Source: a virus (Duplodnaviria > Heunggongvirae > Uroviricota > Caudoviricetes). Taken from it: a DNA stretch of 64,000 bases. Numbering within the stretch: position 1 is the first letter of the stretch; each line of letters begins with the position of its first letter. Shown here piece after piece: positions 53,383-62,873 of this stretch. The notes under the pieces were generated by a model. It was given only the letters and a program-made list of their open reading frames with translations, was not told the origin of the DNA and ran no database searches. The stretch is from IMG/VR virus record IMGVR_UViG_3300042922_001018; one strand, written 5' to 3'. The translations under genes and the position numbers were made by a program.

Positions 53383-53823
53383 CTACAGGGCGCCACGGCC
53401 GATGGCTCGGTCTAGCGCAGTGAAGATGGAGCGTGTGCGACTAGGATAGCCGGAAACTCGTTCGCCACCGTACTTCTCATCGAGAACCACCTCGTATGCG
53501 GTGCGCTTCTTCAGGTCGCGACGGATGCCTCGTGCCACCTTCACCGACGGTGTGCTCTCGTAGGAACTAACGTAGCCGACGCGCTCACCGTCGAGGTAGA
53601 CGGGCGTGCGAAGGTAGCCTGAGCCAGGCAAGATTTCTTCTTCCTCGCCGATACGGACATCGGCCGTCTCCAGCCGCTTGCCGTAGTAGCTCTCCTTCGA
53701 CTTCGTGACCTTGCGAAGCTTCGGTTTTGGTGCAGCGTTCAGGGTGACTTCCGGCGCGGCCCCGGTCTTCTCGGAGAACTTGCCGCCCTGGTCTCGTTCT
53801 ACCTGTGTTTCGTCGAATGCCAT
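53383..53823 (-). CDS. Tagged basic protein
   Basis: MAFDETQVERDQGGKFSEKTGAAPEVTL. Paralogue of 53823-54257 (RTPVY..G..GYV, DLK.RT.Y). Confidence 0.8.
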   Translation of the reverse strand: MAFDETQVERDQGGKFSEKTGAAPEVTLNAAPKPKLRKVTKSKESYYGKRLETADVRIGEEEEILPGSGYLRTPVYLDGERVGYVSSYESTPSVKVARGIRRDLKKRTAYEVVLDEKYGGERVSGYPSRTRSIFTALDRAIGRGAL

Positions 53824-60550: not shown

Positions 60551-60883
60551 TCACCGACCGGCCAGCGGAAGGCCTGCGAGAAGGCCTGAGACGCCGTGAG
60601 CGGGAGTGAACGCTACAGCGGTCACCGCATCGTCGAAATCCGGCTCATGGAACGCAACAGTATCGTGCTCAGAGTCTCGGAATGTCTCGATGGTCTCGCG
60701 CGGAGCAGCGAGGGCGATGACGTAGTTCGAGGTGGAGTTCCAATGACGGGCTGCATCCGCCCGTGTCAGGATGAACTCGGCGACAGCGTGAGCCACTTGG
60801 GCAATCTGCTGTCCCGGTCGAAGGGCGGAATCGACGACAACGTGAAGTCGTGCGTCGCGGAAAGGCAGCTAGTTCTCAGTCAT
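60551..60883 (-). CDS. Pth2-like peptidyl-tRNA hydrolase with in-frame TAG at codon 5
   Basis: TACGCT-N6-ATG ACT GAG AAC TAG, then in frame RLHVVVDSALRPGQQIAQVAHAVAEF...FHEPD...TAVAF.P...LAGLPL. Confidence 0.75.
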
Positions 60884-60895
60884 GAGGATAGCGTA

Positions 60896-61192
60896 TCACA
60901 CCGCTCCGACATCGACTGCGCGGTGTGCATTCAACTCCCGAGAACGAGCCGCCCACAGGTCAGTGCTCACATCCGGGACGGGGATGGCGGGAGCTGGCTT
61001 CTCTTCGAGAATCACGAGAGCGTCACCGGCACACACGCGCCTGGTGCCGTGCTTGTCTTCGATGGTGACCTCGCCGCACATCATGTACTCATCGGCGGCG
61101 ACAACCGTGAACTTTCCCGACTTGGCCCGGAGGAAAGTCACTCTGGCCCCGACCCTCATGCGTGGGTCCGGCCACACACTCAGTTCTTTCAT
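60896..61192 (-). CDS. Hypothetical protein
   Basis: ATGA-coupled operon. Confidence 0.55.
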   Translation of the reverse strand: MKELSVWPDPRMRVGARVTFLRAKSGKFTVVAADEYMMCGEVTIEDKHGTRRVCAGDALVILEEKPAPAIPVPDVSTDLWAARSRELNAHRAVDVGAV

Positions 61193-61515
61193 GGGACGAT
61201 GCTCCGAGCGGCACGGCGGGCCAGCTCTCGCAACCGGTCGGGAATCATCCCGAGGCTCTGGTCGTTCATCACCGCAGCGATGTCCTCGTCAGACAGTGGA
61301 CTCCATCCGTGGTCGCGCAGCTTCTTGTCGGCCGCAGATGAGATAGCCTTCACGACATCGTCGGCGACGCGCCATGAGTACACATCAGGGTACAGCCTCG
61401 TTTCCATCGGAATCTTCTCGATGGCTCGCTCGACCACTCGGTCAAGCGGAAGTGCTGGACGACCGTCGGGGCGCCCCAGACGGAATCCGTTCGCTACGGT
61501 CGGCTCAATGTCCAT
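61189..61515 (-). CDS. Hypothetical protein
   Basis: RBS GAGGAG. Coupled operon. Confidence 0.55.
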   Translation of the reverse strand: MDIEPTVANGFRLGRPDGRPALPLDRVVERAIEKIPMETRLYPDVYSWRVADDVVKAISSAADKKLRDHGWSPLSDEDIAAVMNDQSLGMIPDRLRELARRAARSIVP

Positions 61516-61843
61516 GAGGCTCCTCGCTGGGAATCTCTTCCCACGGCCCGTAGGTGACTCGGCGCCGCATGAGCGTGGCGCGCGGCGTGAAGCCGCCTTT
61601 CTTCATGCGGTTGAGCACGTACCGGACAATGCCACGCGCTTCGTCTAGGTCGGCGTATTGGCGCAGCCGCGGGATGTCGGTCAGGTCGTCCATCGAATCG
61701 GGAATCGCTGCGCCGTAATGGTAGTCGGGCGCGGGCGCTTCGTCGATGAGCTGGGGAAGGTCAGGAACCTGCACCGGGGCGTGAGCGGCGAGCCGGGCTT
61801 CCATCTCCTCACGGAGACAACGCGGCTTCGGGAGGTCAGTCAT
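61505..61843 (-). CDS. Hypothetical protein
   Basis: RBS AAGGAAG before MTDL. Confidence 0.55.
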   Translation of the reverse strand: MTDLPKPRCLREEMEARLAAHAPVQVPDLPQLIDEAPAPDYHYGAAIPDSMDDLTDIPRLRQYADLDEARGIVRYVLNRMKKGGFTPRATLMRRRVTYGPWEEIPSEEPHGH

Positions 61844-62153
61844 TGCTCGCAACTTCCTTCTCCTGGAGTCGGTCCCGTTCCACGCGGATGCCGCGCGCCA
61901 CGCGCTCGCCTGTGATTTCGCTTCCGCCGATGTAGCTCCGCGCTTCGGAGAGGATACGGTCGTAGCTCTCGGAGAGCATCTGACGCACCTGGGACTCCGT
62001 TACCGGCGGCTCGTCGAGAACGTCTGCCATGCGGATGAGCAGTTCCCGCACCGCGTCCGTGTGGTAGTGGTCGTCCGCGAGTCCGCGAGCTGCTTCAGCA
62101 AGCTGCTTCGGAGTCTTGCCTTCGAACTCGTTCCAGCCGTCGAGTAGTTCCAT
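61836..62153 (-). CDS. Hypothetical protein
   Basis: RBS AAAGGGAG. Confidence 0.6.
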   Translation of the reverse strand: MELLDGWNEFEGKTPKQLAEAARGLADDHYHTDAVRELLIRMADVLDEPPVTESQVRQMLSESYDRILSEARSYIGGSEITGERVARGIRVERDRLQEKEVASND

Positions 62154-62348
62154 CAGCTCCCTTTCGCGTAGGTGACGGGGACGTGGCCCACCAGCGAAGT
62201 GCTGAGCAGACCAGCGATGTCTCCCAGCATGCCGGAGAGATGCGGGTTCTCAGTGCGGCCGACAAGGTCTTCCGAGAGTGCTCGTGCAACCTCGGTGAGG
62301 TCTACGAGCGGTGTAGTACCAACGAGAGCCATGCCATCCCTTTCGTTG

Positions 62349-62420
62349 TGCCCCTGACAGGAATCGAACCCGTGACGCGAGGATTTAGAGTCCCCCGTTC
62401 TGCCATTGAACTACAGAGGC
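62349..62420 (-). tRNA. tRNA with CUA anticodon (amber suppressor; Lys-like body), no encoded CCA
   Basis: GCCTCTG TA GTTC AATGGCA GAAC G GGGGA CT-CTA-AA TCCTC GCGTC ACGGG TTCGATT CCTGT CAGGGGC A. Full cloverleaf. Confidence 0.92.
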
Positions 62421-62450
62421 AAGACCGCCGAAGCGGCTTGTGGTTACAGC

Positions 62451-62873
62451 TTACACCACCTTGCGCCGACCCAGCAGCTCGTCCGCCTCGAAGTAGAAGC
62501 CGAGAGCGTAGAGCGTGGTGCCGTCGAGAGTGCCTTCCACGACCTCGAACTCCGCCGTCACCTCGTCGTTCTGAGCGACCAGCACATCGCCGAGCGAGAT
62601 GTCGGTGACGCGGATTGGTTCGTACGACTCCTGCGATGCGTCCACGCCCGTGTCCGCCTTCTTCAGGACGGTGAGCTTGTCCGGGAACAGGCCGTGGGCG
62701 TTCGACGCGTTGATACCGATACCGGTCTCCGGGTCGCTCAGCTCGCCGCGCTCGCGGTAGGACGAGGGGACTTCCCACTCGACACGGCCGCGGTACTCGG
62801 GGTCGGTCTCATCGAACCACTCCAGCAGGACGCGGTCGCGGGGGGAGAAAAGGGTGCCATTCCAGCGTGCCAT
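62451..62873 (-). CDS. Hypothetical protein (paralogue of 63351-63830)
   Basis: W.G..F...D.VLLEW...DPE..GR..W.VP shared. Confidence 0.65.
   Translation of the reverse strand: MARWNGTLFSPRDRVLLEWFDETDPEYRGRVEWEVPSSYRERGELSDPETGIGINASNAHGLFPDKLTVLKKADTGVDASQESYEPIRVTDISLGDVLVAQNDEVTAEFEVVEGTLDGTTLYALGFYFEADELLGRRKVV

What the first reader, a model, noticed from the sequence alone, without database searches (positions are those of the whole stretch)
60551..62420. Amber-gated peptidyl-tRNA hydrolase: MTEN-UAG minigene in frame with Pth2, next to a CUA suppressor tRNA
SEEN: a leaderless promoter (TACGCT-N6) points to ATG 60883. The frame reads M-T-E-N-TAG(60869-60871)-LPFRDARLHVVVDSALRPGQQIAQVAHAVAEF...FHEPD... 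with no alternative ATG/GTG/TTG or RBS before the conserved N-terminal strand and QxxHA helix. The ORF-track start (60796) cuts through that motif. A complete tRNA-CUA lies about 1.5 kb upstream on the same strand. KNOWN: Pth2-family enzymes need the N-terminal beta-strand and QxxHA helix, and very short minigenes (lambda bar) promote peptidyl-tRNA drop-off, which is the Pth substrate. INFERENCE: full-length Pth is made only by UAG read-through. This makes it either dependent on the element's own suppressor tRNA (a timing switch) or a sensor of RF1 shortage or translation stress, analogous to RF2 frameshift autoregulation.
Basis: partly seen in the sequence, partly recalled or inferred. Interest (0 to 1): 0.88.

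Follow-up and report, generated by a model that had tools for sequence, protein, structure and literature searches.

The report
Suppressor-tRNA-gated Pth2-like gene
A giant actinobacterial phage- or plasmid-like element keeps a UAG stop as codon 5 of a small tRNA-hydrolase-like gene and carries its own UAG-reading tRNA; the same lock-and-key pair recurs in lab phages and bacterial chromosomes, so the protein is probably made only while that tRNA overrides the stop.

Summary
Observation confirmed: leaderless ATG 60883, TAG as codon 5, then an intact Pth2 fold (pLDDT 93); the window's only tRNA (CUA) lies 1.47 kb upstream. Not an error, pseudogene or recoded genome: three close relatives keep the TAG with 44-47 synonymous against 5-9 amino-acid changes. 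Of 119 viral homologues picked by protein motif alone, 59 have start-(0-8 codons)-TAG in frame; 42 of 46 well-covered gated loci carry tRNA-CUA. All 22 intact copies found in Nocardia and Micromonosporaceae genomes, the cluster C mycobacteriophages examined and phage pT24 show the pair. The key co-varies: TAA with tRNA-UUA, four-base sites with matching nine-base-loop tRNAs. Best reading: the tRNA unlocks the gene, and the protein then limits or cleans up suppression (inferred). Timing switch and minigene toxicity are not supported. The canonical catalytic Lys is missing, so hydrolase activity is unproven. Re-initiation at the CTG is the main rival here. Nothing is experimental. I found no paper describing it in 10 searches; this scan noted the same system before on other DNA (30 notes, at least 26 genomes).

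The parts
60890..60898 (-). Extended -10 box (TG-N-TACGCT) of a predicted leaderless promoter; overlaps the TGA stop of the upstream ORF
   Evidence: Sequence; same 6-nt spacing in 19 of 77 ATG genes; box kept in L131, L138, L140. Start site not measured.
60869..60883 (-). Five-codon head of the gene: Met-Thr-Glu-Asn-amber
   Evidence: head residues vary among relatives, the TAG does not
60869..60871 (-). Amber gate (TAG, codon 5), followed by CTG
   Evidence: Conserved in L131, L138, L140 and at codons 2-10 in 65 dereplicated homologues
60551..60883 (-). Full read-through ORF, 110 aa, Pth2 fold with remodelled site (G24, Q26, Q29, H32, E80, D82 invariant in 62 gated sequences)
   Evidence: AlphaFold pLDDT 93.3; Foldseek 3erj E 6e-6, TM 0.67; Pfam PTH2 only 15.1 bits, cut-off 23; purifying selection; conservation
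62349..62420 (-). tRNA with CUA anticodon (62388-62386); G1-C72, A73, 5-nt variable loop, no encoded CCA; not pyrrolysine-type
   Evidence: ARAGORN, Rfam RF00005 62.2 bits, anatomy, cloverleaf is the minimum-energy fold
62425..62436 (-). Four-base-pair UUCG hairpin in the tRNA's 5' leader
   Evidence: kept in L131, L138, L140 and with changed pairs in L003, L005. Role unknown.
62448..62453 (-). Predicted -10 box (TAAGCT) of the tRNA's own promoter, overlapping the TAA of the upstream gene
   Evidence: Box kept at the same place in L131, L138, L140, and as TAGACT in L003, L005. Not measured.
60896..62332 (-). Five small overlapping ORFs of unknown function between the tRNA and the gated gene; not a conserved part of the module
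   Evidence: no Pfam or PHROG family for the four scanned; the 61189-61515 ORF recurs only in close relatives

Best explanation
The gene is a real 110-aa Pth2-fold protein read from a leaderless mRNA. Codon 5 is a deliberate amber gate (shown by conservation). Ribosomes pass it mainly when the element's own charged tRNA-CUA beats host RF1 to the A site (inferred from linkage and co-variation), so the protein's level reports how strong suppression is. The residue inserted probably does not matter: it falls in the loose head before strand 1, and the tRNAs' acceptor stems share no synthetase identity. The protein most likely acts back on the suppressor as a safety valve, cutting the ester of tRNA species that suppression produces (dropped peptidyl-tRNA, or the charged suppressor itself), which makes a self-adjusting loop in the logic of prfB (inferred; no activity shown). 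My odds by step: gate is functional 0.93; decoded by the linked tRNA 0.8; protein is a feedback or clean-up hydrolase 0.5.
For: Close relatives keep TAG with 44-47 synonymous against 5-9 replaced codons of 107, and 6-7 against 0 in the 24 codons upstream of the annotated GTG. Motif scan blind to the gate: 59 of 119 viral homologues gated by TAG, 34 of 72 clusters at 70% identity. Gate with tRNA-CUA in 56 of 65 dereplicated loci (42 of 46 well covered) against 10 of 48 for the rest, Fisher p 1.6e-12, not corrected for kinship; on the tree the TAG label needs 12 changes, at least 5 forced by well-supported branches, so this is not one clone. All 9 Nocardia and 13 Micromonosporaceae copies are gated and have the tRNA within about 0.8 kb; two canonical Pth2 genes from the same search have neither. 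Cultured cases: Rabinovish, Bxz1, Myrna, Phabba, pT24. Key follows anticodon: TAA with tRNA-UUA (L102); CATT, CCTT and CTAC four-base sites with matching nine-base loops in 11 loci. Base after the gate is a purine in 63 of 65 against 15 of 28 for terminal TAGs of the AT-rich gated loci (p 1e-6); a 3' purine favours amber suppression (PMC4032126). A neighbouring HD-domain gene carries the same early TAG in 10 of 12 loci.
Against: No experiment: transcription, charging, read-through and activity are all unseen. This window's next codon is CTG, its sister clade has ATG there, and 50 of 65 next codons (ATT, GTA, GTT, ATA, GTG, ATG, CTG) can be weak starts (PMC4032126). The window itself is one of the two cases without a purine after the gate. 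No CUA tRNA was found in two large gated records (L009, L104). About half of the viral homologues have no early TAG, some of them beside a CUA, UUA or UCA tRNA. The canonical catalytic Lys is absent. TAG still ends 6 of 90 window genes, so strong suppression should cost the element too.
Confidence: 0.7

Rival explanations
1. Stop and restart: the ribosome terminates at the TAG and re-initiates on the next codon (CTG here; ATG or GTG in some relatives), or starts there directly; the head is a small upstream ORF that tunes expression and the tRNA is not needed.
For: Start at codon 6 would leave the whole fold. L003-L005 have ATG and cluster C phages GTG right after the TAG. ATT, GTA, GTT and CTG are reported weak starts (PMC4032126).
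Against: Only 5 of 65 next codons are ATG/GTG/TTG; 15 are codons such as GGC, ACT, ACA, AAT, including the window's nearest outer relatives L130, L134, L136. Re-initiation needs neither TAG nor the same frame, yet 68 of 71 in-frame cases are TAG and the other frames show no excess. It does not explain the tRNA link or the four-base keys.
Confidence: 0.1
2. Two-part terminator: tRNA-CUA accepts the chain at UAG and the Pth2-like protein clips it off, so together they stand in for RF1 when it is scarce or disabled; the gate is then the exact counterpart of the prfB stop.
For: Standard-code genomes keep TAG as an ordinary stop; acceptor stems are free to vary; authors found no read-through targets for such tRNAs in XacN1 (PMC5852040); remodelled but invariant polar site.
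Against: A chain passed to an A-site tRNA is normally translocated and extended (general knowledge). Four-base versions cannot serve termination at normal stops. Two gated phages checked encode an RF-1-family domain of their own.
Confidence: 0.1
3. Timing switch: the tRNA appears at a set stage of infection or transfer and switches on the hydrolase together with other amber-containing genes.
For: Proposed for recoded phages (bioRxiv 10.1101/2021.08.26.457843). A second gated gene exists in other phages.
Against: No other gated gene found in this window; both promoters are of the common type; the pair also sits in bacterial chromosomes. Only 64 of 450 kb were examined.
Confidence: 0.06
4. tRNA-independent stress sensor: host near-cognate tRNAs leak through the UAG when RF1 is short, and the suppressor tRNA is a bystander.
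For: Two large gated records lack a detectable CUA tRNA. RF1 level must modulate any amber gate.
Against: Tight linkage (42 of 46; 22 of 22 chromosomal copies) and key-anticodon co-variation.
Confidence: 0.03
5. Sequencing error, recent nonsense mutation, or a genome-wide TAG recoding.
For: Raw reads not seen.
Against: Same TAG in three diverged assemblies under purifying selection; window genes are intact under the standard code, 87% coding, with TAG as a stop in 6 of 90.
Confidence: 0.01

Closest known systems
Peptidyl-tRNA hydrolase 2 (PF01981; PDB 3erj, 2zv3, 1wn2, 1xty, human Bit1 1q7s)
   Same: Same fold (Foldseek E 6e-6, TM 0.67) and the G-x-x-x-x-Q-x-x-H helix.
   Different: 12-20% identity; below the Pfam and NCBIfam cut-offs; G-K becomes G-Y/Q-Q, D-A-G-R-T becomes E-P-D with a shorter loop; canonical genes in the same search are ungated and have no CUA tRNA.
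Stop-codon-recoded phages with suppressor tRNAs (code 15; crAss-like, Lak; bioRxiv 10.1101/2021.08.26.457843)
   Same: An element-encoded CUA tRNA is thought to unlock genes holding in-frame TAG.
   Different: Here the genome uses the standard code, one or two tRNA-related genes are gated at their first codons, no structural or lysis genes; the pair also occurs in chromosomes and with ochre and four-base keys. The word 'hydrolase' does not occur in that paper.
prfB (RF2) autoregulation by an early in-frame UGA (own knowledge)
   Same: An early in-frame stop makes a translation-factor gene report on termination against bypass.
   Different: Bypass is by a dedicated tRNA in the same frame, not by a +1 shift at a slippery site with an internal Shine-Dalgarno; the product is not a release factor.
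Pyrrolysine tRNA / 'tRNA-Pyl' and PTH2-like gene of cluster C mycobacteriophage arrays (PMC5966550)
   Same: That paper lists both a 'pyrrolysine' tRNA and a PTH2-like gene in the cluster C arrays: the same two parts.
   Different: It does not link them; the deposited annotation starts the gene after the TAG. The window's tRNA has an ordinary cloverleaf, not the pyrrolysine one.
Lambda bar minigenes (PMC8012679)
   Same: Very short ORF ending in a stop, connected with Pth.
   Different: Here the mini-ORF is the head of the gene itself; in cluster C it is start-stop with no peptide; no toxicity evidence.

Membership tests
Pth2 (PF01981, TIGR00283) | Pth2 alpha/beta fold | tested here: met
   Model pLDDT 93.3; all 12 Foldseek hits with E up to 0.001 are Pth2-family structures
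Pth2 (PF01981, TIGR00283) | Score above the curated family cut-off | tested here: not met
   Pfam 15.1 bits against 23; no NCBIfam hit for the window protein, relatives 17-29 bits against 82 and 126
Pth2 (PF01981, TIGR00283) | Catalytic Lys, Asp and Thr (K18, D86, T90 in the Sulfolobus enzyme; from my own knowledge, paper not held) | tested here: not met
   Lys position is Q25 (Y, Q or D in relatives); Asp aligns to invariant E80; the Thr of D-A-G-R-T falls in a gap
Pth2 (PF01981, TIGR00283) | Hydrolyses peptidyl-tRNA | not testable with these tools
   Needs an assay; six invariant residues, four of them polar side chains near the canonical site by alignment, suggest an enzyme
Amber suppressor tRNA | Canonical cloverleaf with CUA centred in a 7-nt loop | tested here: met
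   Rfam 62.2 bits, full length; loop CUCUAAA as in 41 of 58 linked tRNAs
Amber suppressor tRNA | Charged by a synthetase and inserts a residue at UAG | not testable with these tools
   Acceptor stems vary widely; A73 in 40 of 58, G1-C72 in 50; amino acid unknown
tRNA-Pyl | Six-pair anticodon stem, 3-nt variable loop, no GG in the D loop, no UUC in the T loop (own knowledge) | tested here: not met
   Five pairs, 5-nt variable loop, GG and UUC present; ARAGORN names it by anticodon only
TAG-recoded (code 15) genomes | Many genes with internal TAG; TAG not used as a stop | tested here: not met
   87% coding under the standard code, TAG ends 6 of 90 genes, no second gated gene found in the window
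prfB-type autoregulation | Conserved early in-frame stop in the regulated gene | tested here: met
prfB-type autoregulation | Bypass by +1 frameshift; product is the release factor for that stop | tested here: not met
   Frame continues unshifted after TAG; product has the Pth2 fold
prfB-type autoregulation | Product lowers its own bypass (negative feedback) | not testable with these tools
   Inferred only

The most novel reading that the evidence does not exclude
A widespread, undescribed class of mobile 'programmable decoder' modules: an odd tRNA (amber, ochre or four-base) that changes how the cell reads chosen codons, paired with a Pth2-fold enzyme of new specificity that acts on that very tRNA and is unlocked only by it, forming a closed RNA-protein feedback loop or, at the extreme, an RNA-guided substitute for a release factor.
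Probability: 0.25. Interest if true: 0.95.

Novelty: new variant of a known kind. Interest (0 to 1): 0.8.

Why it matters
Suppressor tRNAs in standard-code phages are a standing puzzle: authors report them and find no target (XacN1, PMC5852040; Summit, PMC9022506 abstract), and in cluster C mycobacteriophages they are filed as pyrrolysine tRNAs (PMC5966550). This gives many of them a natural target: in a tRNA-first sample, 29 of 102 viral CUA-tRNA loci had a Pth2-family gene in the same stretch and 13 showed the early gate by eye, a lower bound because stretches are partial. The gene is routinely mis-started by annotation. It is testable now in Mycobacterium smegmatis with Bxz1-type phages, could be a stepping stone to full recoding, and offers natural suppressor and four-base tRNAs with a built-in limiter for genetic code expansion.

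Tried and rejected
No whole genome held and the contig was not searchable, so 386 kb of the element are unseen and phage versus plasmid is undecided (no plasmid hit for the protein; a 721-aa neighbour hits large phages). The generic promoter scan misses the leaderless box because there is no -35. No unusual RNA structure after the gate (z 0.48). The helical and HD partner families of other loci are not in this window. Self-avoidance test of a 'poison the host' model: four-base phages do not avoid their key (7.3% against 8.8%, p 0.84); gated and ungated AT-rich loci use terminal TAG equally (28 of 232, 8 of 68); the window uses TAG less than actinobacterial chromosome pieces (6 of 90 against 36 of 167, p 0.002), but gene callers differ and the host is unknown, so I give it little weight. 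Three automatic TGA-gate calls were reassigned by hand as four-base type. A first synonymous-change count was out of register and redone. Partner proteins found no named family. Ten literature searches found no description; most subscription journals are not covered. No complex prediction was run, as no binding is claimed.

Full report
What is there. On the minus strand an extended -10 box (60898-60890) lies 6 nt before ATG 60883. Three sense codons follow, then TAG (60871-60869), then 105 open codons to TGA 60551. The first standard start after the TAG is GTG 60796, which the ORF list and JGI use. The only tRNA of the window has a CUA anticodon and lies at 62420-62349 on the same strand. The window belongs to a 450,372-base JGI contig; three contigs carry the truncated protein. 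It is 62% GC, has ribonucleotide reductase, ThyX and nuclease genes, and 19 of 77 predicted ATG genes have the same box at exactly 6 nt against 1.6% of all ATGs. A leaderless start at 60883 is therefore the expected reading. Whether the element is a phage or a plasmid I could not decide.

The code is standard. My gene calls cover 87% of the window and end in TGA 68, TAA 16, TAG 6; no other start-TAG-long-frame case has both a promoter box and a recognisable protein.

The protein. Read through, it folds with pLDDT 93.3 and matches only Pth2-family structures at E up to 0.001. The GTG start would remove strand 1 and three invariant residues. It is not a canonical Pth2: Pfam gives 15.1 bits against a cut-off of 23, the Lys of the G-K motif is replaced and the D-A-G-R-T loop becomes E-P-D. 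That this Lys, Asp and Thr are catalytic is my own knowledge; the paper was not held. G24, Q26, Q29, H32, E80 and D82 are invariant in 62 gated sequences, which suggests an enzyme with a changed site.

The stop is kept by selection. Three close relatives keep TAG-CTG and a CUA tRNA; after the stop they differ from the window by 44-47 synonymous and 5-9 replaced codons of 107, and by 6-7 and 0 in the 24 codons before the annotated GTG. Relatives at 70% identity have a box, ATG, one codon, TAG, and two of three loci include the tRNA; the third is a 2-kb contig. Cultured phages agree: Rabinovish and Bxz1 have ATG-TAG, Myrna and Phabba GTG-TAG, directly before the annotated gene, with the CUA tRNA just downstream. 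Tenacibaculum phage pT24 has Met-Lys-TAG before a Pth2-HD fusion whose annotated start is internal, and a CUA tRNA 2.6 kb upstream.

How general. A motif scan of viral contigs, blind to the gate, gave 119 real homologues: 59 with start-(0-8 codons)-TAG, one with TAA. With targeted loci added and dereplicated at 80%, 113 remain: in frame TAG 68, TAA 1, TGA 2, with no such excess in the other frames. Gate positions are codons 2-10, mostly 3-5. A CUA tRNA lies in the locus for 56 of 65 gated and 10 of 48 other cases (p 1.6e-12, not kinship-corrected); 42 of 46 where 1.5 kb is held on both sides. One of the four exceptions has the tRNA elsewhere in its genome, one is a small fragment, and two large records showed none. 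On the tree the TAG label needs 12 changes (shuffled mean 34.8; at least 5 forced), and the window sits inside a six-row all-TAG group. In bacteria, 9 of 151 Nocardia and 13 of 201 Micromonosporaceae genomes searched carry an intact gene of this family; all 22 have TAG at codon 5 and the tRNA within about 0.8 kb, with a small helical gene between them in the eight loci where I clustered neighbours; two canonical Pth2 genes and one decayed copy have neither.

The key follows the anticodon. L102 has TAA at codon 3 and a UUA tRNA. In a divergent branch the ATG is out of frame by one base, and the four bases whose reading as one step would restore the frame are the complement of the four central bases of a neighbouring nine-base anticodon loop: CATT in nine loci, CCTT and CTAC in one each. 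This is the strongest argument that the linked tRNA, not chance leakage, opens the gate. The base after the amber gate is a purine in 63 of 65 cases and never T, against 15 of 28 purines and 11 T for terminal TAGs in the AT-rich gated loci; a 3' purine enhances amber suppression (PMC4032126). The window is one of the two exceptions, both CTN; from memory CUN codons are the known exception to that rule, which I could not verify. A neighbouring HD-domain gene has the same early TAG in 10 of 12 loci and is fused to or overlaps the gated gene in the other two.

How it most likely works. Shown: promoter-like box, conserved gate, intact fold, linkage, co-variation. Inferred: the tRNA is charged by a host synthetase and competes with RF1 at codon 5, so the protein is made in proportion to suppression. 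The inserted residue is probably unimportant, since it lies in the loose head and the acceptor stems share no identity set. A gene unlocked by whichever odd tRNA it travels with is most simply one that is needed only when that tRNA is active, so I favour a limiter or clean-up hydrolase acting on the charged or peptidylated suppressor (0.5 for this step). What the element gains from suppression is open; tests for self-avoidance of the key were negative or weak.

Rivals. Re-initiation is real for this window: CTG would give the whole fold, the sister clade has ATG there, and 50 of 65 next codons can be weak starts (PMC4032126). But 15 cannot, and re-initiation explains neither the fixed frame, nor TAG, nor the tRNA. 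A timing switch fits poorly with two ordinary promoters and chromosomal copies. Minigene drop-off cannot be the conserved point because cluster C gates at codon 2. A tRNA-plus-hydrolase terminator is not excluded for the amber form.

Novelty. The parts are in print separately: a 'pyrrolysine' tRNA and a PTH2-like gene in cluster C arrays (PMC5966550), suppressor tRNAs without targets (PMC5852040), tRNA-unlocked genes in recoded phages (bioRxiv 10.1101/2021.08.26.457843). I found no paper that joins them in ten searches of a library lacking most subscription journals. This scan has noted the amber form in at least 26 other genomes and the four-base form three times; these are unchecked AI notes and I reached both patterns before reading them. 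The Nocardia and Micromonosporaceae cassette was not among the notes returned. I class it as a new variant of stop-codon gating, interest 0.8.

Noticed in passing
L018, L032, L050, L053, L055, L064, L067, L123, L187, L028, L062: Same gene family gated by a +1 shift at a four-base site complementary to a neighbouring tRNA with a nine-base anticodon loop (CATT, CCTT, CTAC); by eye also L071, L030 (CATT) and L070 (GTAG, which contains the amber codon).
   Followed up: partly
L165:5269-5860, L262-L283: Three-part chromosomal cassette in Nocardia and Micromonosporaceae: gated gene, an 85-105-aa helical protein of no known family, tRNA-CUA; in Asanoa L165 it lies between a UvrD-like helicase gene and M23-like peptidase genes (by reading the translations).
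   Followed up: partly
L035, L037, L078, L081, L098, L111, L113, L115, L235, L287: HD-domain gene (phrog_14850) beside the Pth2-like gene carries its own early TAG, or is fused to the gated gene (L108, pT24).
   Followed up: partly
L010-L129 (41 loci), L293, L358, L363, L364: A basic helical protein family of no known name often flanks, overlaps or is fused to the Pth2-like gene; in L293 a TAG sits at the fusion joint.
   Followed up: partly
L331, L348, L358, L363, L394: Short frames upstream of that helical gene read Met, few codons, TAG, few codons, Pro-Pro, stop: possibly an amber-gated stalling leader.
   Followed up: no
L020, L038, L041, L060, L091, L097; L048, L052, L095: Ungated members lie beside tRNAs with UCA in an eight-base loop (opal-like) or with UUA (ochre); no matching gate found near the gene.
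   Followed up: partly
L309: A Pth2 that keeps the G-K motif also has Met, three codons, TAG at its head, 3.3 kb from a CUA tRNA.
   Followed up: no
window 53383-53385: The gene at 53823-53383 ends in TAG in frame with the next gene (start 53358, eight codons on); read-through would fuse two proteins that share an N-terminal tag. The second gene has its own promoter-like box, so this may be chance.
   Followed up: no
window 7885-54257: About 20 genes begin with a shared 25-30-residue peptide (R-x3-G-x-F-x-x-K-x-G) behind similar leaderless boxes.
   Followed up: no
L006:2864-2949, L007:2872-2951: In Phabba and Myrna a repeated hairpin and tRNA-like element lies between the gated gene and the CUA tRNA; the records label the CUA tRNA as Arg or Ser.
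   Followed up: no
L016, L046, L077, L390: These homologues have a further TAG inside the domain; L016 and L046 lie beside CUA tRNAs and could be doubly gated or recoded.
   Followed up: no
L002:5594-6970, L003:862-2223: A WGR-PARP gene lies upstream of the tRNA in this element and in its relative.
   Followed up: no
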